Position numbers and translations under genes: made by a program
Origin: a virus
Lineage: Duplodnaviria; Heunggongvirae; Uroviricota; Caudoviricetes
Direction: 5' to 3' (one strand)
Length of the DNA: 64,000 nucleotides
IMG/VR virus record: IMGVR_UViG_2778261268_000002
The notes under the pieces: generated by a model
Told to the model about the DNA's origin: nothing
The model's database searches: none
What the model saw: the letters and a program-made list of their open reading frames with translations, nothing else
Shown: in pieces, positions 3,360 to 45,900 of the stretch
Layout of the letters: the number at the start of each line of letters is the position of its first letter
How positions within the stretch are numbered: position 1 is the stretch's first letter

Positions 3360-5374
3360 GAGAGCTGTGCTATGGATCTGTTTGCAGTGGAATTGAAGCC
3401 GCGAGCATTGCCTGGGAACCGTTGGGTATGCGTCCGGCGTGGTTTGCTGAGATCGAGCCTTTTCCATCTGCCGTTCTTGCGCACCGCTGGCCCCATGTCG
3501 CCAACCTTGGCGACATGACAAAACTCGCCCAAAAAGTCCAGGCAGGAGAAATTGAAGCCCCTGATATGCTCGTCGGGGGTACGCCTTGTCAGGCATTCAG
3601 TATCGCGGGCTTACGTGGTGGGCTTGATGATGAGCGCGGCGCGCTAACTTTGAAGTATGTGGAGCTTGCAAATGCAATTGACGACAAACGGGCTGAGTCC
3701 TTCCTCAAACCAGCAGTTATCGTCTGGGAAAATGTCCCAGGAGTCCTGTCATCAGCAGATAACGCGTTCGGATGTTTCCTTGCCGGATTGGCTGGAGAAG
3801 ATGCGCCATTCGAACCTGGTGATCGACCTGAATCACGAAAAAGTAATACGTTCTGGCGGTGGGATGTCAAAACCGGTTGCCATGCTCCAAAGTGGCCGCA
3901 GTGTGGTTGTATTTATGGACCGCAGCGAAAAGTGGCCTGGAGAATCCTTGATGCCCAATACTTCGGAGTGGCACAACGACGCCGACGCGTGTTTGTTGTC
4001 GCAAGTGCTCGAACAGACCTCGATCCCGCAACGGTACTTTTTGAGTTCGAAGGCGTGCGCCGGAATATTGCGCCGAGCAGAGGCGAGGGGAAGGAAACTA
4101 CCAGATATACTTCAAACATCGCTATCAGAACTTGCGATGATACAAACATAATTGCCATGGCACATGGGCAAGGAGGGGCTGAGATAAAAACCGATAATTC
4201 GGCACCAACTTTGACATGTAACCATGAAGCACCAATTGTATTGCTCGGCGACGGTAGAATGCGCCGTCTTACCCCTGTCGAATGTGAAAGGCTGCAAGGT
4301 TTTCCTGATGGGCATACGTTGATCCCGACGGAAAAGCGTAAAAAAGTTAATTCAGATGAACTGGCATATCTTCGCAATCACTATCCAGATTTAAGCGAAG
4401 AAGAGGTCGCGATGCTTGCAGCTGACGGACCGCGTTACAAAGCGATCGGCAATAGTATGGCAATACCAGTAATGTGCTGGATTGGAGATCGGATTACTAA
4501 GGCCGTATGTCGGCAGAAAGAAGGAAGTGAAACAAAAGAGCGAAAAGTTAAACCAGCGGCAGAATTCGAACGGTCCATATTCAAATGGGCTGGTGGAAAA
4601 TTTGGTGTTCTGGAACAAATCTTTCACTATTTGCCAGAAGGGAAGCGCCTGATTGAACCTTTCGTTGGTGGCGGAGCTGTCTTCATGAATGCCGGATACC
4701 AGGAAAATCTGCTAAATGATGTGAATGCTGACCTGATTAACTTTTACAAGACTCTGCAACGCGAGGCGCATTCACTTATCACTCTGGCACATCGTTTCTT
4801 CCTGGACTACAACACCCAGGAGGGATTCCTGGCAGTACGGAATGCGTTTAACAAACAAGTCTATGATGATTTACATCGCGCAGCGGCGTTTTTGTTCCTG
4901 AACCGACATTGTTTTAATGGATTGACGCGCTACAACCAGGCCGGTGAGTTCAATGTCGGTTATGGGAAGTATAAAACTCCGTATTTCCCATTACAGGAGA
5001 TGGAAGCCTTCCTCGGTGCGGAAGGGCGGTCTGAGTTTGTATGCGGTGATTTTGCAGCAGTGATTGAAGCTGCCGGAGAAGGAGATGTCATCTTTTGCGA
5101 TCCGCCGTATGAACCGCTCCCCAATACAGAGGGGTTTACGAACTATTCCGGTCATGACTTTAAGTTTGAAGAGCAAAAACGCCTGGTGTCTCTGTTGACG
5201 GATGCTCATCGCCGAGGTGCAAAGGTACTCATTACTAACAGTGGCGCGCCAAACGTCAGAGAACTTTATCAGGACAGTGGCTTCAGAGTGGAACCTCTCT
5301 TTGCCAGACGTTCTGTGTCTTGTAAGGGAGACACTCGTGGTGTTGCTCATGACGTTATGGCTATATTGCTCTAA
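3356..5374 (+). CDS. dmt: bifunctional DNA methyltransferase: N-terminal C5-cytosine MTase domain fused to C-terminal Dam-like N6-adenine MTase domain
   Basis: N-terminal half has PCQ ([12 protein letters not shown]) and ENV (VIVWENVPG) motifs; C-terminal half has FKWAGGK and DPPY motifs typical of Dam. Confidence 0.85.
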
Positions 5375-5381
5375 TAAATTT
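5365..5381 (+). promoter_or_regulatory. C1 operator box overlapping dmt stop codon
   Basis: ATTGCTCTAATAAATTT (full consensus). Confidence 0.7.
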
Positions 5382-5557
5382 ATTAGTGTAATATCACCTC
5401 AATGAATCGTGATTTATAGAGCGATTTAGCTGTTAGCCGCGACAGGCGCGGCGGCAAGTATGGCGGGGTAGTGACTCCTTCCCCATCATGACGCCGAGTT
5501 GCCAGGTTGACCATACGCCTAAGTGGCAACACCGAAGTGCGTTACGAGCTTCCAGTT

Positions 5558-5587
5558 TGCCCATCTTCGGGTGGGCGTTTTTTTCAG
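5558..5587 (+). terminator. rho-independent terminator downstream of dmt
   Basis: GC-rich hairpin (gcccatcttcgggtgggc) followed by a run of 7 T; coordinates approximate. Confidence 0.5.
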
Positions 5588-6050
5588 GGTTTTCGTCATG
5601 GTTAGCGACTTTGCGGCGGTTTAGAAACTGACCATTAAAGTAAATGCAAACGATGATCTGATGATGGTAGCGGCCTAAGAAGCCAGACGCCACGGGGTAT
5701 GAGTCGTCCCCCGTCAAAAAATCGACCGCAGAGTGTCCCCGTCTGTGTATTAGGGAACGGGGAGGCACAACAGGTAAGGGCGCTGGTTCGATTAACCAGA
5801 TGAGCGAGAAGGGGTCATCTTTTTGGTCAGCGTCCTTACCTGTTACGTCCTTTTTCATTCTGCGTAACAGCAATTGCTTTTAGCAATTTGAAGATAACGT
5901 CCTACTACGGGTGTATCCCGTCATGCTGAAGGCGCTAATCACGCTGGAAGCCAGGGTTGTGCATCCCCTGTTACCGAATTGCAGCCAGGGCGCGGTGCGC
6001 CGAAAAGCATACGGAGGTGGAAGCCCTCGCCGGAGACGTACCCGGCAAGT

Positions 6051-6126
6051 GATGGTGTAGCTCAGCGGTTAGAGCGGTTGACTGTTAATCAACGGGTCGA
6101 TGGTTCAAATCCATCCACCATCGCCA
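6051..6126 (+). tRNA. tRNA-Asn (anticodon GUU)
   Basis: 76-nt cloverleaf: acceptor GATGGTG/CACCATC, D-arm GCTC/GAGC, anticodon loop CTGTTAA, T-loop TTCAAAT, encoded CCA. Confidence 0.85.
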
Positions 6127-6128
6127 AT

Positions 6129-6204
6129 GCCGGTTTAGCTCAGTTGGTAGAGCGCCTGCCTTGTAAGCAGGATGTCAGCGGTTCGAGTCCGTTAACCGGC
6201 ACCA
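6129..6204 (+). tRNA. tRNA-Thr (anticodon UGU)
   Basis: 76-nt cloverleaf 2 nt after tRNA-Asn: acceptor GCCGGTT/AACCGGC, anticodon loop CTTGTAA, T-loop TTCGAGT, encoded CCA. Confidence 0.85.
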
Positions 6205-6767
6205 GCACAACAGGTAAGGGCATTCTCCCTTATAGGGCTTGGCTTAAATGCATCGAGTGCTCTTACCGTTGTGATGAAGTGCAGCTCTTTGAAGCAACCA
6301 GAAGATAAGCATCTGGCTTCACAACATAAACCGCAGGAACGACCAATAAACGGTAGTCCGTATGGAGAACACCCCGTTGAGGAAGAGGCCTGGCCGGAAC
6401 CGTAACCGGCGACTGGTAATGTGTGTAAATGGAGCGAAATATGTGGGCGTTTAACGGGATACGGGTTGTAACAGCGATTATTAACGGCGAACTTAAGTAT
6501 TCACGTTTCGAGACAAATGAACGTGATGGGAAATGTATTGGTGTGCGGTTAGTAAGAGAATACGCATAACAACTACAACGTTGAGAACACTGGCGTAACG
6601 GGGTCATATCCCAATCTATGAATAAATGTTGCGTTGCAGCGTGACAACCAGTGTTCTCAACATTGTGGTGAATGCACAGGCTGATGTGCCGCAACTACAG
6701 TAGTGCGCGCTTTGCGGGGCTTGCTACAACCCTGTGTCGGAGTTCAGCACCGACCATCACAATCACT

Positions 6768-6854
6768 GGAGAGTAGGGAGCATGGTGCTCAAACGGTCTT
6801 GAAAACCGTCCCATTGCGCAAGCGATGATGGTTCGATTCCATTACTCTCCGCCA
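6768..6854 (+). tRNA. tRNA-like element, possibly tRNA-Ser (anticodon UGA) with long variable arm; D-arm non-canonical
   Basis: 87 nt: acceptor GGAGAGT/ACTCTCC, anticodon stem-loop ACGGT-CTTGAAA-ACCGT (same loop as E. coli tRNA-Ser UGA), T-arm GATGG-TTCGATT-CCATT, discriminator G plus CCA; position 8 is A and the D-loop is short. Confidence 0.5.
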
Positions 6855-6888
6855 GTGCAACGTTAAGAGTATTTGGCTAATTAAGCGA

Positions 6889-7101
6889 ATGCCGGAAGCA
6901 GAACCGGATCACCAAATGCGTACAGGCGTCATCGCCGCCCAGCCAGCCAAGTGCTCTTACCATTGCGGTGAATGCGGCTATGCGCACGCGGAACAGTTAA
7001 AACAATCCTCCTTAGTGGTTAAGTCAAACATCCCGGCGTTAATTGTTAACTGGTTAACGTCACCTGGAGGCACCAGGCACCGCAGCTTTTTTATTCGTTA
7101 A
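6889..7101 (+). CDS. hypothetical small protein (uncertain)
   Basis: 70-aa ORF with ATG; contains one copy of the 27-bp repeat family; could be non-coding. Confidence 0.3.
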   Translation: MPEAEPDHQMRTGVIAAQPAKCSYHCGECGYAHAEQLKQSSLVVKSNIPALIVNWLTSPGGTRHRSFFIR

Positions 7102-7117
7102 ATAATGGAGTGAGAGG

Positions 7118-7354
7118 ATGCAGAACAATCCGAACAAATGTCGAACGCTATGGGTGCGGTTATATATTTATGCCGTCCTCTGTTTGATTGTGTCACTGGT
7201 TCTGTATGTTTGGCTTTTGCCAAATATGATCTCATCTAACAGCACAATACTTGTATTGTTGGGAGTCCTTTTCGCGCTCATTTACCCGGCTTTCGCAGTA
7301 GTCTTTTTTCGTGAAAAAACCAGGAAATTAATTAATGAAAAAAACGTTGATTAG
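7118..7354 (+). CDS. small membrane protein (two predicted TM helices)
   Basis: 78 aa, hydrophobic stretches LYIYAVLCLIVSLVLYVWLL and ILVLLGVLFALIYPAFAVVFF. Confidence 0.5.
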   Translation: MQNNPNKCRTLWVRLYIYAVLCLIVSLVLYVWLLPNMISSNSTILVLLGVLFALIYPAFAVVFFREKTRKLINEKNVD

Positions 7355-8162
7355 TGCAGCGATTATTTTGGGTTCTTTATGTCTGACCGGATGCGATCGG
7401 GTAGAGCCAGGTAACGTAGGGATCAAAGTAAATAAGCTGGGGGATGATAAAGGTATCGGTGAAGTAGTTGGTGTTGGTCGCTACTGGACAGGCTTGAATA
7501 CTGAAGTTTATATCTTCCCGACCTTTAAGCAAATGAAGACATACGATGAGCCGTTCAGCTTCCAGATGAGCGACGGAACAACCATTGGTTACCACATCGG
7601 CGTAGCCTACAAGGTTGATCCAGCAAAAGTCACAACGGTATTTCAGACCTATCGCAAAGGTGTAGATGATATTACTGATACCGATCTACGCCAGAAGGTT
7701 GCAGATGCTCTGAACCGGTTAGCCAGCAAAATGACCACCGACAAATTTATCGACGGTGGCAAATCTGAATTGCTTGATGCAGCCCTTAAAGACATTCAGG
7801 AAGAAATGACGCCAATCGGCATTCAGGTGATGAGCCTCTCTTATGTAGGTAAGCCAGAATATCCGCCAACAGTTATTGACAGTATTAACGCCAAAGTTAC
7901 GGCAAACCAAAAAACCCTGCAACGCGAGCAAGAGGTCAAACAACGTGAAGCAGAGGCCAACATGCTGCGCGCGGAAGCTGCCGGACAGGCTGATGCTATT
8001 CGCACAAAAGCCCAGGCCGAAGCTGATGCCATTCGTTTACGTGGTGAAGCTCTGCGCCAGAACCCCGGTGTTATGGAGTTGGAAGCGATCAACAAATGGA
8101 ACGGTACATTACCGCAGTATATGACCAGTAATGCCGCTGTTCCGTTTGTTCCGGTGAAATAA
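7335..8162 (+). CDS. lipoprotein with SPFH/band-7 (prohibitin-like) domain
   Basis: Lipobox LCLTGC after signal peptide; C-terminal Ala/Glu/Gln-rich coiled region typical of HflK/C-type SPFH proteins. Confidence 0.6.
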   Translation: MKKTLISAAIILGSLCLTGCDRVEPGNVGIKVNKLGDDKGIGEVVGVGRYWTGLNTEVYIFPTFKQMKTYDEPFSFQMSDGTTIGYHIGVAYKVDPAKVTTVFQTYRKGVDDITDTDLRQKVADALNRLASKMTTDKFIDGGKSELLDAALKDIQEEMTPIGIQVMSLSYVGKPEYPPTVIDSINAKVTANQKTLQREQEVKQREAEANMLRAEAAGQADAIRTKAQAEADAIRLRGEALRQNPGVMELEAINKWNGTLPQYMTSNAAVPFVPVK

Positions 8163-8189
8163 AAGCGTAAGCAAAATTGGCAGTAATCC

Positions 8190-8265
8190 GGCCCTTTAGC
8201 TCAGTGGTTAGAGCTGGCGACTCATAATCGCACGGTCACCGGTTCAAGTCCGGTAGGGGCCACCA
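8190..8265 (+). tRNA. tRNA with CAU anticodon, most similar to tRNA-Ile2 (lysidine-type, ileX-like)
   Basis: 76 nt, near-identical in outline to E. coli ileX (GGCCC.TTAGCTCAGTGGTTAGAGC...CTCATAATCG...GGTTCAAGTCC...GGGGCCACCA). Confidence 0.8.
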
Positions 8266-8506
8266 TATTTGGTTGTAACACGGCGTCTGGCACATGCGTC
8301 GTTAGCGGTCTGGTGACGTTAAAGGGGTTACCTTTTCCCCTAGCTCAGGCAACAAACCAGGTAGCCGGAATGTGCAAGTCACCGTTGGAGGGATAGCGGA
8401 TACAGGGACTCACCATCCTGGCGATTCGGTGTGACAGCCGGGAAGAGTCCGGCGCATTAATCCTGATTTTCTGGTGATGACTCATATCGTTAGGAGTGAT
8501 TTGAGT

Positions 8507-8551
8507 ATGCCGATTATATCTGACATTCAGCACGCCTGGGTGGAGTGCTAA
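8507..8551 (+). CDS. putative 14-aa leader ORF translationally coupled to ban (TAATG overlap)
   Basis: AGGAG RBS then ATG; MPIISDIQHAWVEC; stop overlaps the ban ATG; coordinates approximate. Confidence 0.3.
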   Translation: MPIISDIQHAWVEC

Positions 8552-42939: not shown

Positions 42940-45900
42940 TTATGCGTATTGTTGGATGACGGCCAGAACGTCCGCCACGTTGTGTTTTGTCTCGATAATC
43001 CACCAGTTACCCAGGAAATCGCTGTTCTTCGCCTTCGCTGGCAGCCAGCGAGCGCCGAATTTCGCCTTGATTGCGTCTTTCGCACGGAAAAGAACGCCTT
43101 TCATGCCTGAGGCTTCCTGAAGCCCAAATACCTCGCCAGCGGCGAATTTTGGTGCGTACATCATCTCCAGGTCGGCGGTGGATACGCGATAATTCAGACC
43201 AAGAGACTGAGCTATGCTGGTGGCATCACCCTGTATTGATGATAACTCTTCTTGTTTCTCGTTTCTGGCGGCAATTTCTTCCTCCGTGATGTTGCCAAGG
43301 GCCAGGTTTATCCGATCAGCGTCGGCCTGTTTCTCTTCATCGGTGCGCCCGGCAAGAACCGTGTTAATACTCTGCAATATCTCCACATGATTCTTGCGCA
43401 TGCTGAGCAATTCCGGCGTAACCTCGTTAAGGTCCACCAGCCCAAGGATGGCAAGGTCGGTAAACATCGATACTAGGTTGTAGGTCATGCGATAGCTGAG
43501 TTGCCCATAGGCTGATGGCAACTGCACCGCATCCATTTTATAGGCATCCATAAATTTAGAGCCGTCGTTTACGACATCCGCAATTGCCGGTGTGATTTTC
43601 CCTGTGGTGGCGGCCTCCCTGATTGCTGTTACCCACGATTGAGTCAGCGCGGCGACTGCATGATTCAGATTGACTTTCCGTTCTGCTGCAATGCGCGCGC
43701 TTGCTGCGTCCATTGCCTGCTTGATCTCGTCTTTATTGCTGTAAATGCCAATGGTGCCAAACTGTGCTGTGGTGATCTCATAATCTGACGCCCGGAACTC
43801 ATTGGTACCGAAAATGGCATTGGTGACTTCAAGTTCAGAATCCCCGTTACGAGTAGCCCCCTGGCTTGTTTTCTCCGGCATTCTGGCGATCGCATCCGCT
43901 ATTTTCTCCTGAATTGCTTCAGGGGATAGCGTATCTCCGTATGACGCGATTACATCGCCATAATTGGAGCCAAACAGTTCAACCAGGAATGCTTCTGCCG
44001 AACGGATCTGGCGGTTATTCCCTTCCGACATCATACCAAGCACCCATTTTGCAATTGACGACTTCAGCGCGCCGTCACGGCGATCCGGGTAAACCGCATG
44101 CTTCAGTGGGTCCGTATAGGTACCAACAAAATCAATGCTATAGCCTGACTCTGTAGTCTGAACGCCGTATGAGTCAGTGATTTTGATCATGCCGCGCTGC
44201 TGGAAACGGTAGAAATCGTCACAGGAAACGATGTCGTTAATCCCGGCGATGGAGACGCCACCACTGATTTTCTGCATAACAGCATCTTCATCGGGAGTTA
44301 CATCAACCTGTTTATCCAGCGTCTTCACATCCCAGTTACCAGATTTGGTGCCTTTGAAGGTGAAGATGATCTCCACGTCTGCGCGCTGGCTGTCGAAGTC
44401 CAGCGACTTAATGCGAACGATATCACCGGCACAATCGTAGTATTGGCCTACACGCCATGAGCGATCGCCGATAACAAGGAACTCACTCGCATGGTTAACC
44501 AGGTCAGGATCAACATCCAGAATGCCTTTATTTAATGCATCCTCCACCAGCGGGCGCAGGCGTTTGATATCCGTCGCGGCCTTCTGAGTACGGTTCAATA
44601 ATTTCTCATAGCGGGAGATGGCTTGAGAGATATTAGCCTTGCGCTGAATGGCGCTTTTCAACGACGCGCGATACTGTGCTAACAACATACGGTCTGTGTG
44701 ATGGACACTCCCCCAGCGTGCCTTCCAGTCTGCGTTATCCGCTGCCTTGGCCATTGCCGCCTGTTTGAATTTAGCTACCTCGGCGGTGGTCTTTTCAAGT
44801 TCCGCTTTGCTTCGCTCTAATTCAGCGGTAAGCACCTCCACATCCTCACCAGCTGCGTGCTGCGCCTTGATGTAGTTCTGAAGGTCGATAGTAGCCTGTT
44901 CTTTCTGGCGAGCGCGTTGCGCGGCTTTCGCCTTATCCATTTGAACCTGCATCATTGCCAGACGTTCGCCATCATCCTTAGCGGTATACATCTGCATTTC
45001 GATCATATCGTTGGCGTCGGCGTTCTCCATTTCTGACTTATCTGAACGGAGGATATCGGAGATCCAGCCTGCTTTACGCTTCAGCGTCTTCAGTCGGTAT
45101 TCATCGAAAGAACCCTTGCCGCAGTAGTAGTGAACGCGAACGCTTGCACGGTTGGAGCCAACTCGGGCACCGCGACCGTTTCGTTGCGCAATACTGGCTG
45201 GAGTCCATGGCAACGTCAGATGATGGATGTCAGTCGTTCCTCGATGCAGGTTGATACCCACCTCTGCCTTTTTGTTGCAGATGATGATCGGAGTCCGGCC
45301 CTCCTGGAAGTCGGCTGCAATCTTTTCCAGACCGCCCAACGACATTTCATTTTGCTGCGCGATATAGGCGTCATACAGAGCCATTTGCTCGTTGTATTTC
45401 GCTATCTGTGCATCTGTTGGTTCATCCGGTAACTCTTTCGGCGGTTTAACCGCTTTCAGTTTCTTACCGGTTTTACCTGCCTCGGCAACCGTCTGAGCAT
45501 TCAGTATCCCCACCTTTGAAGGTTCAAGGTTAAGAGCATTGCAGATAATGCGCTTGAGCTTCTGGTGCTGCGTTTTTTCATCGGTGAAGATGATTTGCTT
45601 ACCTTCCGGGAAAAACTCCTTCAGCGTGGCAATCAGCTTCGCGTATTTGGGCGTAACGGGGTGAGTTACGGTCTGTTCGTCAATGCCAAACCTGGCCAGG
45701 CGCTTATTCACTTCCTGCTCGAACGCTTCCGGAACCTGCAACTGAATAAACTCGCCCTTATCTATCAGGGAGTATTGCGATTGCTGCGTGATTGAATCAT
45801 CACTGTCGTCGTCTTCGCTGGTGGCTTGTTTAGGCAAACTGTCTGCCAGCTGCTGCACCGCATCGGCGTACTCCGGCAGGAAACGATAGGTGATCCGGCG

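What the first reader, a model, noticed from the sequence alone, without database searches (positions are those of the whole stretch)
6129..6990. Possible fourth tRNA (Ser-UGA-like) and three copies of a ~27-bp direct repeat around the tRNA cluster
Besides tRNA-Asn, tRNA-Thr and the distal tRNA-Ile2, an 87-nt sequence at 6768-6854 folds as a type II tRNA with a canonical anticodon loop CUUGAAA and encoded CCA, but an atypical D-arm. In addition the motif AGTG(C/T)TCT(T/C)A(C/A)C(G/A)TTG(T/C)G(A/G)TGAA(G/T)GC recurs at about 6255, 6650 and 6949, twice shortly downstream of a tRNA or tRNA-like 3-prime end. The repeats could be processing signals, relics of tRNA-module duplication or sRNA elements. 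A 14-bp inverted repeat (GTTGAGAACACTGG/CCAGTGTTCTCAAC) sits at 6581-6661.
Basis: seen in the sequence. Interest (0 to 1): 0.45.

Follow-up and report, generated by a model that had tools for sequence, protein, structure and literature searches.

The report
Processing hairpins around phage tRNA genes
The three "repeats" are the downstream halves of long RNA hairpins that punctuate a P1-like phage operon leader packed with tRNA genes and small RNAs, and the extra tRNA is a genuine, already annotated serine tRNA, so the finding is real but mostly an ordinary RNA-processing layout.

Summary
The window is a P1/P7/D6-like phage. The finding lies in the C1-repressed ban-operon leader.

- **Observation:** every item holds. 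ARAGORN calls tRNA-Ser(UGA) at 6768-6854. The repeat sits at 6256-6281, 6650-6675 and 6950-6975. The inverted repeat is real and longer than reported (22-nt arms).
- **tRNA:** it is not new. Phage D6 and RefSeq P1-like plasmids annotate it. It belongs to a phage tRNA-Ser family that shares the compact D arm and shows compensatory changes.
- **Repeats:** each copy is the 3' arm of a 17-22 bp hairpin (H_B, H_C, H_D, plus H_A at 5769-5844). Each 3' arm also runs into the closing helix of a small-RNA module. The third module scores just below threshold as Rfam STnc100.
- **Family:** these hairpins are common in enterobacterial phages, including lambda just after tR'. Stems covary, loops vary freely, and the better-folding strand matches nearby tRNAs 62:2.
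- **Mechanism (inferred):** a related hairpin in E. coli Qin coincides with the mapped RNase III cut that makes the 190-nt DicF precursor. I infer that the hairpins are RNase III processing stems releasing tRNAs and sRNAs from one transcript. No RNA-end data exist for a P1-like phage.
- **Seen in passing:** a tmRNA-tag-like module at about 5586-5765.

The parts
5364..5380 (+). C1 repressor operator (Oban-like, ATTGCTCTAATAAATT) at the start of the ban operon. It sets the transcription direction for everything below.
   Evidence: Sequence. The corresponding P1 and P7 annotation of Oban, P1ban and P2ban lies directly after dmt/dam.
5769..5844 (+). Hairpin H_A (arms 5769-5785 and 5828-5844). Its 5' arm shares the exact 17-mer GCACAACAGGTAAGGGC with H_B.
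   Evidence: Inverted repeat I2 (17 nt, 94%) and direct repeat D4. Fold energy -43.4 kcal/mol.
6051..6126 (+). tRNA-Asn (GUU)
   Evidence: ARAGORN. Rfam tRNA 74.5 bits.
6129..6204 (+). tRNA-Thr (UGU)
   Evidence: ARAGORN. Rfam tRNA 74.9 bits.
6206..6273 (+). Hairpin H_B (5' arm 6206-6225, 3' arm 6254-6273, bulged A at 6212). It starts one base after the tRNA-Thr CCA. Repeat copy 1 (6256-6281) is its 3' arm.
   Evidence: Folds. Hairpin covariance model 53.3 bits, E 1.4e-13, against 25.9 bits on the minus strand.
6268..6325 (+). Small module S1. Closing helix GUUGUGAUGAAG (6268-6279) with CUUCACAAC (6317-6325), and an inner hairpin CCAGA...UCUGG. Its 5' strand overlaps the 3' arm of H_B.
   Evidence: Fold of 6262-6330. 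The same unit follows this hairpin in many viral contigs.
6441..6569 (+). 42-codon ORF with a GGAG Shine-Dalgarno sequence, inside an insertion of about 170 bp that most relatives lack.
   Evidence: ORF list. tblastn found it in only one other held locus, L061.
6572..6669 (+). Hairpin H_C (arms 6572-6593 and 6648-6669). Repeat copy 2 (6650-6675) is its 3' arm.
   Evidence: Inverted repeat I1. Fold z = -5.2. Model 43.5 bits, E 1.5e-10.
6662..6763 (+). Module S2. Closing helix AUUGUGGUG (6662-6670) with CAUCACAAU (6755-6763), first hairpin GCACA-GGCUGA-UGUGC, last hairpin UCGGAGUUCAGCACCGA. It has the same architecture as STnc100/PasD-type sRNAs.
   Evidence: Folds. Homologous modules with covarying closing helices occur in 83 distinct sequences.
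6768..6854 (+). tRNA-Ser (UGA), class II. It has a long variable arm with a GCAA tetraloop, a compact D arm (GAGC/GCUC stem with a 5-nt loop), discriminator G and an encoded CCA.
   Evidence: ARAGORN. tRNA-Sec model 45.1 bits against a gathering score of 47. D6 and RefSeq annotation. Family covariation.
6857..6966 (+). Hairpin H_D (5' arm 6857-6877, 3' arm 6946-6966; 19 of 21 positions pair, two of them as G.U). It starts 3 nt after the tRNA-Ser CCA. Repeat copy 3 (6950-6975) is its 3' arm.
   Evidence: Fold -44 kcal/mol. Model 38.7 bits, E 4.5e-09.
6878..6945 (+). Apical insert of H_D. It is a 65-nt structured element 98.5% identical to lambda 44866-44930 and 83-88% identical to the stretch that follows tRNA-Ser in rV5-like (Vequintavirus) phages.
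   Evidence: BLAST. In lambda it is closed by UGUGCUG/CAGCACA. In phage EmilHeitz it is closed by a different stem, UGUUGACCUUGU/ACAUGGUCAACA.
6963..7085 (+). Module S3, an STnc100-like sRNA. Closing helix UUGCGGUG with CACCGCAG, last hairpin CCUGGAGGCACCAGG, then a T-run at 7087-7092.
   Evidence: Rfam STnc100 40.1 bits, E 1.5e-06, gathering score 47, model positions 31-147. The homologue in P1 scores 33.4 bits. Fold.
8190..8265 (+). tRNA-Ile2 (CAU anticodon, called Met by ARAGORN), the distal tRNA of the same operon.
   Evidence: ARAGORN. P1 annotates it as trnI and RefSeq as tRNA-Ile.

Best explanation
The region is the non-coding leader of the C1-repressed ban operon of a P1-like phage. 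It is read left to right as one long RNA.

The RNA is built of cassettes: tRNA-Asn, tRNA-Thr, tRNA-Ser(UGA) and three small structured RNAs (S1, S2 and the STnc100-like S3). These are separated by long hairpins of one conserved family (H_A to H_D).

Shown here:
- the hairpins exist;
- they belong to a widespread phage family whose stems keep pairing through compensatory changes while the loops vary freely;
- they are strand-specific and co-oriented with tRNA genes;
- tRNA-Ser belongs to a conserved phage tRNA family.

Inferred: host RNase III cuts the roughly 20-bp stems. That would separate the tRNAs from their trailers, leaving RNase P and 3' exonucleases to finish them. It would also free the GUUGUG strand of the 3' arm, so that the following small RNA can close its own terminal helix and accumulate as a stable, probably Hfq-associated, sRNA.
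For: Structure: each of the three repeat copies has a complementary upstream arm.

Lambda carries one immediately after tR'.

Covariation: on 62 distinct arm pairs, 94% of cells pair and 13 of 19 pairs show changes on both sides. None of 500 shuffles reached this, and slid controls paired only 36-61%.

Strand: the strand that folds better once G.U pairs are allowed matches the strand of tRNAs within 1.5 kb in 62 cases against 2. Stems hold 266 G.U against 107 A.C. The model scores 53.3 against 25.9 bits and 43.5 against 31.7 bits for plus against minus strand.

Placement: hairpins start 1-3 nt after a tRNA CCA, or directly after a terminator T-run, or after the 3' strand of a preceding S module.

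Competing pairings: the hairpin and the S closing helix compete for the same GUUGUG.

sRNA identity: S3 matches Rfam STnc100 at E 1.5e-06. STnc100 and PasD are prophage sRNAs (bioRxiv 10.64898/2026.05.13.724894).

RNase III link:
- E. coli K-12 Qin has a related hairpin at 1,649,172-1,649,257.
- The RNase III-dependent 190-nt DicF species (Faubladier 1990, as cited and re-mapped in bioRxiv 10.1101/2023.04.14.536235) would begin at about 1,649,245, inside its 3' arm.
- The Qin segment that follows that hairpin is 83% identical to window 5437-5534.
- In Rac, the validated sRNA KilS (PMC8175672) begins at the junction of loop and 3' arm of another such hairpin.

tRNA-Ser: annotated in D6 and in RefSeq. 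The acceptor stem is 100% paired, with 6 of 7 pairs compensatory across 20 family members.
Against: - There is no RNA-end or RNase III data for any P1-like phage. The cleavage step rests on more distant relatives in Qin and Rac.
- The covariance model built from 62 family members does not detect the Qin (dicF) or Rac (KilS) hairpins, even with filters off. Their kinship rests on arm similarity read by eye, on intermediates such as CACAACAUGGAAGCGCAUUCC.../...GGAGUGCGCUUCCAGUUGUG, and on synteny.
- The position of the Qin cut is derived from a gel size of '190 nt', not from a coordinate I could read.
- KilS was reported as possibly having its own promoter rather than being processed (PMC8175672).
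- Hairpins for the covariation count were collected as inverted repeats, which inflates pairing and covariation.
- S1 and S2 do not score on any Rfam model. S3 and the tRNA both fall just under Rfam gathering scores.
- Stability or recombination roles would predict the same anatomy.
Confidence: 0.55

Rival explanations
1. The hairpins are DNA-level cassette boundaries. Their conserved 17-22 bp arms act as short homologies, or as recombinase sites, at which unrelated phages swap non-coding cargo such as tRNAs and sRNAs. Any RNA structure is a by-product.
For: Similarity breakpoints coincide with the arms. Lambda matches only the apical insert 6879-6943, and rV5-like similarity stops at 6945. 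P1 has a plain hairpin where this phage has tRNA-Ser plus H_D. The same stems flank different cargo in P1-like, lambdoid, Deseoctovirus-like and SSU5/Cyrano-like phages. The insertion of about 170 bp carrying ORF42 sits between modules.
Against: A pure DNA role would not predict the strand asymmetry: G.U 266 against A.C 107, and 62:2 co-orientation with tRNAs. It would not predict compensatory changes that preserve pairing. No recombinase gene is linked to the hairpins. The integron attC core GTTRRRY is not matched (the sequence here is GTTGTGR). This role is compatible with the RNA role as a side effect rather than an alternative to it.
Confidence: 0.2
2. The conserved 3' arm is the seed of a family of base-pairing sRNAs, and the 5' arm is a built-in mask or a sponge. 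In particular, the arms imitate the host sRNA GcvB (3' arm) and its CACAACA target motif (5' arm), as the prophage anti-sRNA AgvB does.
For: Repeat copy 1 matches GcvB nt 58-72 at 14 of 15 positions. The 5' arms and the S1 3' end carry CACAACA, the GcvB R1 target consensus (PMC4104026). KilS in Rac starts with the 3' arm of such a hairpin and binds Hfq (PMC8175672).
Against: In a crude duplex-energy ranking against GcvB R1, the 5' arms are not among the best 25 of 12,794 30-nt windows. The Rfam AgvB model gives no hit at E up to 10. AgvB is transcribed antisense to the late operon (PMC4104026). Within the precursor both arms are locked in a hairpin of about -40 kcal/mol.
Confidence: 0.1
3. The hairpins are RNA stabilisers or transcription-control elements rather than cleavage sites. 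They could act as 3'-exonuclease barriers protecting upstream tRNAs or sRNAs, or as put-like elements helping RNA polymerase read through the internal terminators to reach ban.
For: They sit directly 3' of tRNAs, S modules and terminators. The leader contains terminator-like sites at 5555-5585 and a T-run at 7087-7092 that must be read through to express ban.
Against: There is no similarity to known antiterminator RNAs in Rfam. In lambda the hairpin lies after tR', where Q already provides antitermination. The Qin relative coincides with an RNase III-dependent end.
Confidence: 0.1
4. The repeats are inert relics of duplicated tRNA modules. Alternatively, the region encodes minus-strand proteins, as in the P1 annotation of plp and upl.
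For: S modules look tRNA-derived. One contig (L070) has a tRNA-like element with acceptor UGUGGUG/CACCACA-A-CCA, a normal D arm and a T arm GCCGG/CCGGC, which is the same closing helix and last stem as in S modules. P1 annotates minus-strand ORFs over this stretch.
Against: Pairing is conserved through compensatory change across distant phages. The motif is not part of any tRNA here. The 143-codon minus-strand ORF breaks into two frames in relatives and is interrupted by an insertion or deletion.
Confidence: 0.05

Closest known systems
RNase III processing site upstream of DicF in the dicBF operon of E. coli prophage Qin (Faubladier et al. 1990; bioRxiv 10.1101/2023.04.14.536235)
   Same: A long hairpin inside a repressor-controlled polycistronic phage transcript. 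It is followed by a small RNA, then an STnc100-like module, then a cell-division or 'kil'-type gene. The arms resemble each other (CAUAAC...GCGCAU / GUGCGCUUCCGGUUGUGG). The Qin segment just downstream is 83% identical to window 5437-5534.
   Different: Here the hairpin occurs four times and flanks tRNAs. The family model does not score the Qin copy. Cleavage has not been tested in any P1-like phage.
STnc100 (Rfam RF02076) and PasD prophage sRNAs
   Same: S3 aligns to model positions 31-147. It shares the closing helix, the GAAU motif, the first hairpin and the GGAGGCACC last hairpin. It is prophage-borne and sits next to DicF-type loci.
   Different: It scores 40.1 bits against a gathering score of 47. 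It lies in a P1-type plasmid-prophage operon leader, not a lambdoid late region. S1 and S2 share only the architecture.
tRNA-Ser(UGA) of phage D6, RefSeq P1-like plasmids, phage Cyrano and rV5-like Vequintaviruses
   Same: The same gene, 83-99% identical. It has the compact D arm, a long variable arm, G73 and CCA.
   Different: Nothing of substance differs. Classical P1 lacks it and P7 carries it unannotated.
RNase III processing stems of rRNA operons and of the phage T7 early transcript (from established knowledge)
   Same: Repeated stems of about 20 bp punctuate one long transcript. Related stems enclose or separate stable RNAs, and tRNAs embedded in the transcript are finished by other RNases.
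   Different: There is no sequence relationship. In the phage family the loops carry variable cargo, and the 3' arm doubles as the 5' strand of the next RNA.
Integron attC sites
   Same: Imperfect palindromes of 50-130 nt with a conserved stem, a bulged base and a freely variable apical part. They recur between cassettes in one orientation.
   Different: The core is GTTGTGR, not GTTRRRY. There is no integrase. The cargo is non-coding RNA and there is no evidence of site-specific recombination.

Membership tests
tRNA (class II, serine) | Cloverleaf with a 7-bp acceptor stem, a 5-bp anticodon stem, a 7-nt anticodon loop with U33, and a T arm with GTTCGATTC | tested here: met
   ARAGORN call. Structure counted on 20 family members: 95% of cells paired and the acceptor stem 100% paired.
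tRNA (class II, serine) | Long variable arm, with G73 and G1-C72/G2-C71/A3-U70 as in E. coli tRNA-Ser (the E. coli identity set is from memory) | tested here: met
   Sequence 6768-6854: variable stem AUUGC/GCGAU with a GCAA loop, acceptor GGAGAGU/ACUCUCC, then G and CCA. The variable arm covaries.
tRNA (class II, serine) | Reaches the curated score of a general tRNA model | tested here: not met
   Not listed at Rfam gathering thresholds. The best clan hit is tRNA-Sec at 45.1 bits against 47. D6 authors note that tRNAscan-SE did not call the amino acid. RefSeq nevertheless annotates tRNA-Ser.
tRNA (class II, serine) | Processed, CCA-ended and charged with serine in vivo | not testable with these tools
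   Needs northern blots, acid gels or tRNA-seq.
tRNA-Sec | UCA anticodon reading UGA | tested here: not met
   The anticodon is UGA, which reads UCN serine codons.
STnc100 (RF02076) | Score at or above the Rfam gathering threshold over the full model | tested here: not met
   40.1 bits against 47, and only model positions 31-147 of 206.
STnc100 (RF02076) | Closing helix xxUGGUG...CACCAxx with GAAU, a first hairpin, and a CCxGGAGGCACCxGG last hairpin | tested here: met
   Alignment. Fold.
RNase III processing hairpin (Qin dicBF type) | Uninterrupted or nearly uninterrupted duplex of about two helical turns in the transcribed strand | tested here: met
   Stems of 17-22 bp with one bulge or mismatch. 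Strand specificity.
RNase III processing hairpin (Qin dicBF type) | Detectable homology to the experimentally cut Qin hairpin | tested here: inconclusive
   Arm similarity and shared downstream sequence support it. The family covariance model does not detect the Qin or Rac copies.
RNase III processing hairpin (Qin dicBF type) | rnc-dependent cleavage in the stem | not testable with these tools
   No RNA-end data for P1-like phages were found in the literature searches.
Integron attC | R''/R' cores RYYYAAC / GTTRRRY and a linked IntI integrase | tested here: not met
   The cores are GCACAAC / GTTGTGC-G, with one off-consensus position in each. No integrase lies next to the arrays in the loci inspected.
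HDV-like (theta) or other self-cleaving ribozymes 3' of phage tRNAs | Match to a ribozyme covariance model | tested here: not met
   No ribozyme family appears at E up to 10 in 5400-8600.

The most novel reading that the evidence does not exclude
The ban-operon leader is one instance of a widespread, so far undescribed 'non-coding cassette array'. In this reading, hairpin-bounded cassettes are shuffled between unrelated enterobacterial phages at the conserved stems. The cargo would be tRNAs, tRNA-derived STnc100/PasD-type sRNAs, the lambda post-tR' element, and a tmRNA-tag-like RNA that lacks an acceptor stem. The same stems would serve as RNase III release sites, and their arms might imitate the host GcvB seed and its CACAACA target.
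Probability: 0.2. Interest if true: 0.75.

Novelty: new member of a known kind. Interest (0 to 1): 0.45.

Why it matters
The tRNA itself adds nothing new. The useful results are these.

- **Reinterpreting old sequence:** stretches of 'junk' or doubtful ORFs become a regular array of processing hairpins and small RNAs. This applies to P1 plp and upl, and to the lambda region after tR'.
- **Linking separate systems:** three systems studied apart turn out to share modules. These are the P1 ban leader, the Qin dicBF and Rac kil operons, and the lambdoid late-region sRNAs (STnc100, PasD).
- **If RNase III does cut these stems:** it would explain how phage tRNAs and Hfq-binding sRNAs are released from repressor-controlled polycistronic transcripts. 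It would also give a simple sequence handle (CACAAC...GUUGUG hairpins) for finding phage non-coding RNA cargo.
- **The neighbouring tag module:** if functional, this tmRNA-tag-like module would be the more surprising finding.

Tried and rejected
- **Ribozyme after the tRNA:** no Rfam ribozyme hit appears at E up to 10.
- **tRNA-Sec:** the anticodon is wrong.
- **Integron attC:** the core consensus is not met and no integrase is present.
- **GcvB sponge or mimic:**
  - The 14 of 15 match to GcvB nt 58-72 is real.
  - The first duplex run, against full-length GcvB, was uninformative: random 45-mers scored as well.
  - The run restricted to R1 did not rank the 5' arms in the top 25 of 12,794 windows.
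- **Minus-strand coding (plp/upl-like):** the 143-codon ORF is not conserved as an ORF.
- **Functional tmRNA in the leader:** ARAGORN finds none in the window or in about 200 related loci. I could find no acceptor stem or CCA by eye.
- **Detecting the Qin and Rac hairpins with the family model:** this failed, with filters on and off.
- **Free-end-gap pairwise identities of the arms:** not a usable statistic, because random sequences reached high counts.
- **Literature searches:**
  - Searches on processing of the P1 ban-operon RNA found nothing relevant.
  - The P1 genome paper (PMC523184) is not held.
- **Sigma-70 promoter scan of 5000-8700:** it found none, against 4.1 expected. There is therefore no support for internal promoters.
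Full report
**Context**

The window matches phages P7 and D6 over the query at 93-94% identity. It matches classical P1 only as far as 6761. The P1 and P7 annotations place this stretch in the ban operon. That operon starts at the C1 operator Oban just after dmt/dam. It runs through a 'dicF-like region', tRNA-Asn, tRNA-Thr, tciA-C and tRNA-Ile2 to ban. In the window the operator lies at 5364-5380 and ban starts at 8545. Everything discussed here is on the plus strand of that operon. It is therefore presumably expressed only when C1 repression is lifted.

**Check of the observation**

- **tRNA-like element.** ARAGORN reports tRNA-Asn, tRNA-Thr, tRNA-Ser(tga) at 6768-6854 and the CAU-anticodon tRNA at 8190. 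At gathering thresholds Rfam lists only the three canonical tRNAs. With relaxed thresholds the Ser element scores 45.1 bits on the tRNA-Sec model, whose gathering score is 47. This reflects its compact D arm.
- **Direct repeat.** It is family D2 at 6256, 6650 and 6950. Its core occurs nowhere else in 64 kb, against 0.13 matches expected by chance.
- **Inverted repeat.** It is real, with 22-nt arms.

**The tRNA**

- D6 annotates the same gene, noting 'has apparent UGA Serine anticodon but AA not called by tRNAscan-SE'.
- RefSeq annotates a non-pseudo tRNA-Ser in P1-like plasmids that are 99% identical.
- Phage Cyrano and the rV5-like phages also carry it.
- A pattern scan recovered 84 viral contigs and 52 distinct sequence contexts with the same D arm and anticodon arm.
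- On 20 diverse members the cloverleaf is 95% paired. Six of seven acceptor pairs, and the variable arm, show changes on both sides. None of 500 shuffles reached this.
- The D arm and anticodon arm were fixed by the search pattern, so their invariance says nothing.

I conclude that it is a real phage tRNA-Ser(UGA) that is already known. P1 itself lacks it.

**What the repeats are**

Folding shows that each repeat copy pairs with an upstream arm.

| Hairpin | 5' arm | 3' arm | Position relative to tRNAs |
|---|---|---|---|
| H_B | 6206-6225 | 6254-6273 | starts one base after the tRNA-Thr CCA |
| H_C | 6572-6593 | 6648-6669 | none adjacent |
| H_D | 6857-6877 | 6946-6966 | starts three bases after the tRNA-Ser CCA |
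| H_A | 5769-5785 | 5828-5844 | upstream of the tRNA cluster |

The apical part of H_D (6878-6945) is 98.5% identical to lambda 44866-44930. Lambda itself has a canonical copy of the hairpin immediately after tR' (GCACAACAGGTAAGAGCA...AGTGCTCTTTCCGTTGTGC), followed by that same element. In rV5-like phages the element again follows tRNA-Ser, but a different stem encloses it.

**The hairpin family**

- **Abundance.** It gave 47 distinct hairpins with unrelated loops of 13 to more than 45 nt.
- **Subtypes.** A looser scan for anchored inverted repeats found about 140 further distinct instances in ten or so stem subtypes. Examples are GGUAAGAGCA/UGCUCUUACC, GUUGAGAACAC/GUGUUCUCAAC, AUUAAGGAGGC/GUCUCCUUAAU and AUGGAAGCGCA/UGCGCUUCCA.
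- **Covariation.** Counted on 62 distinct arm pairs, 94% of cells pair and 13 of 19 pairs change on both sides. None of 500 shuffles reached this, and slid controls paired 36-61%.
- **Caveat.** The instances were collected as inverted repeats, so these numbers are inflated. The unbiased part of the evidence is that all four window copies, which were found as direct repeats, have partners.
- **Strand.** The better-folding strand agrees with nearby tRNA genes 62 to 2. G.U outnumbers A.C 266 to 107. A model built from the arms scores the plus strand far higher than the minus strand. That model also finds an unannotated copy in the late region of K-12 Qin, at about 1,641,160-1,641,223 on the minus strand, with E 4.4e-05.

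**What follows each hairpin**

The last bases of the 3' arm (GUUGUG) continue into G/A-UGAAU. Together they form the 5' strand of a closing helix whose partner (CAC/UCACAA) lies 60-200 nt downstream, just after a conserved last hairpin. Closing-helix variants covary:

| 5' strand / 3' strand | Count |
|---|---|
| UGCGGUG / CACCGCA | 26 |
| UGUGGUG / CACCACA | 23 |
| UGUGAUG / CAUCACA | 9 |
| UGUGCUG / CAGCACA (the lambda element) | 5 |

These counts are, and complementarity was required in that search.

In the window these modules are S1 (6268-6325), S2 (6662-6763) and S3 (6963-7085). S3 aligns to Rfam STnc100 (40.1 bits, E 1.5e-06, gathering score 47). The P1 homologue scores 33.4 bits. A lambdoid prophage has a full-length hit directly after DicF and before dicB. 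STnc100 and PasD are described as related prophage sRNAs (bioRxiv 10.64898/2026.05.13.724894). Hairpin and closing helix compete for the same six bases.

One contig (L070) has, in the S position, a tRNA-like element. It has acceptor UGUGGUG/CACCACA-A-CCA, a normal D arm and the T stem GCCGG/CCGGC that S modules also use. S modules therefore look tRNA-derived. This is an inference from one intermediate.

**Link to RNase III**

- **Qin.** K-12 Qin has a related hairpin at 1,649,172-1,649,257. DicF is made as a 190-nt species whose 5' end needs RNase III, and as a 53-nt species that needs RNase E (bioRxiv 10.1101/2023.04.14.536235, citing Faubladier 1990). Counting 190 nt back from the annotated DicF 3' end (1,649,434) gives 1,649,245, inside the 3' arm.
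- **Shared downstream sequence.** Qin 1,649,262-1,649,358, just after that hairpin, is 83% identical to window 5437-5534. The two leaders are therefore related.
- **Rac.** A hairpin at 1,418,563-1,418,482 is followed by an S module and kilR. The validated Hfq sRNA KilS starts at 1,418,502, the junction of loop and 3' arm (PMC8175672).
- **Against.** The family model does not score the Qin or Rac copies. KilS may have its own promoter.

**Mechanism**

The anatomy, conservation, strand and placement are shown. The rest is inferred: RNase III cuts the stems in the ban-leader transcript, and this separates the tRNAs from their trailers. It also lets the following sRNA close its terminal helix. I put this at about 0.55.

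The main rival is a DNA-level role as cassette boundaries. It is supported by breakpoints that coincide with the arms. It does not explain the strand asymmetry. It may well be a side effect of the conserved stems.

**Other readings tested**

- The minus-strand ORFs that P1 calls plp and upl are not conserved as ORFs here.
- No ribozyme is detected.
- The attC consensus is not met.
- The GcvB resemblance (14 of 15 positions, and the CACAACA motif, PMC4104026) is not backed by duplex-energy ranking.

**Outside the finding**

Window 5586-5765 holds a conserved module with a ten-codon frame, GCA AAC GAU GAU CUG AUG AUG GUA GCG GCC UAA, encoding ANDDLMMVAA. Seven variants exist in related loci, all exactly ten codons long and all tag-like: ANDDLMMAAA, ANDNLMMVAA, ANDDVVLMAA, ANDDLMLMAA, ANDEQFLAVA and ANEEMYLAVA.

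- There is an in-frame UAG eight codons upstream and no AUG, GUG or UUG start (read).
- A hairpin over the stop codon and two further helices show compensatory changes, and there is a pseudoknot-like pairing.
- Rfam gives only weak tmRNA hits, and ARAGORN gives none.
- I found no acceptor stem.

I did not resolve what this module is.

Noticed in passing
window 5586-5765 (tag frame 5645-5677); also L007 about 1320-1500, L009, L010, L037, L041, L048: A tmRNA-tag-like module. It has a ten-codon frame (ANDDLMMVAA*) with seven tag-like variants in related phages, all exactly 10 codons long, and no usable start codon. A hairpin over the stop codon and further helices show compensatory changes. No acceptor stem or CCA was found, and ARAGORN makes no tmRNA call. 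In Deseoctovirus-like siphophages it has its own sigma-70-like promoter and lies antisense to the tail genes.
   Followed up: partly
window 5437-5585: The stretch is 83% identical to the part of the Qin 190-nt DicF precursor that lies between the RNase III hairpin and DicF. It ends in a different stem-loop terminator (5555-5585) instead of DicF itself. This is probably a DicF-position sRNA with a new 3' half, corresponding to P1's 'dicF-like region'.
   Followed up: partly
window 6263-6694 (minus strand), and P1 plp/upl in L002 3475-4044: Minus-strand ORFs annotated in P1 as plp and upl overlap the hairpin and sRNA array. The equivalent 143-codon ORF here is not conserved as an ORF in relatives, so these genes are probably annotation artefacts.
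   Followed up: partly
window about 6400-6570: An insertion of about 170 bp between S1 and H_C carries a 42-codon ORF (6441-6569) with a GGAG Shine-Dalgarno sequence. It was found in only one other held locus (L061). Its function is unknown.
   Followed up: partly
L070 about 605-720: A degenerate tRNA-like element follows a family hairpin. It has acceptor UGUGGUG/CACCACA-A-CCA, a canonical D arm and T arm, and a long insert in place of the anticodon arm. ARAGORN does not call it. It looks like an intermediate between a tRNA and the S (STnc100-type) modules.
   Followed up: no
L209 11161-11224 minus strand (E. coli K-12, about 1,641,160-1,641,223): An unannotated family hairpin followed by an S module lies in the late region of cryptic prophage Qin. 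The covariance model found it at E 4.4e-05.
   Followed up: no
L211 (E. coli K-12 Rac) 1,418,563-1,418,260 minus strand: The order is family hairpin, then the KilS sRNA, then an STnc100-like module, then kilR. The annotated 5' end of KilS falls at the junction of loop and 3' arm of the hairpin.
   Followed up: partly
window 6262-6276 compared with E. coli GcvB nt 58-72 (L212): Repeat copy 1 (CTTACCGTTGTGATG) matches the start of the GcvB R1 seed region at 14 of 15 positions. The 5' arms carry CACAACA, the GcvB target consensus. A crude duplex-energy ranking did not support a sponge role.
   Followed up: partly
L005 685-783 and L133 990-1088 (rV5-like phages): A 97-99-nt tRNA-like gene next to tRNA-Ser is annotated as tRNA-Lys. 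ARAGORN reports it as tRNA-??? with a four-base anticodon (atcc).
   Followed up: no
window 7118-8162: In place of P1 tciA-tciC, this phage has a 78-codon membrane-protein ORF and a 275-codon SPFH-domain lipoprotein gene between S3 and tRNA-Ile2. The same cassette is in RefSeq plasmid NZ_CP050999.
   Followed up: no
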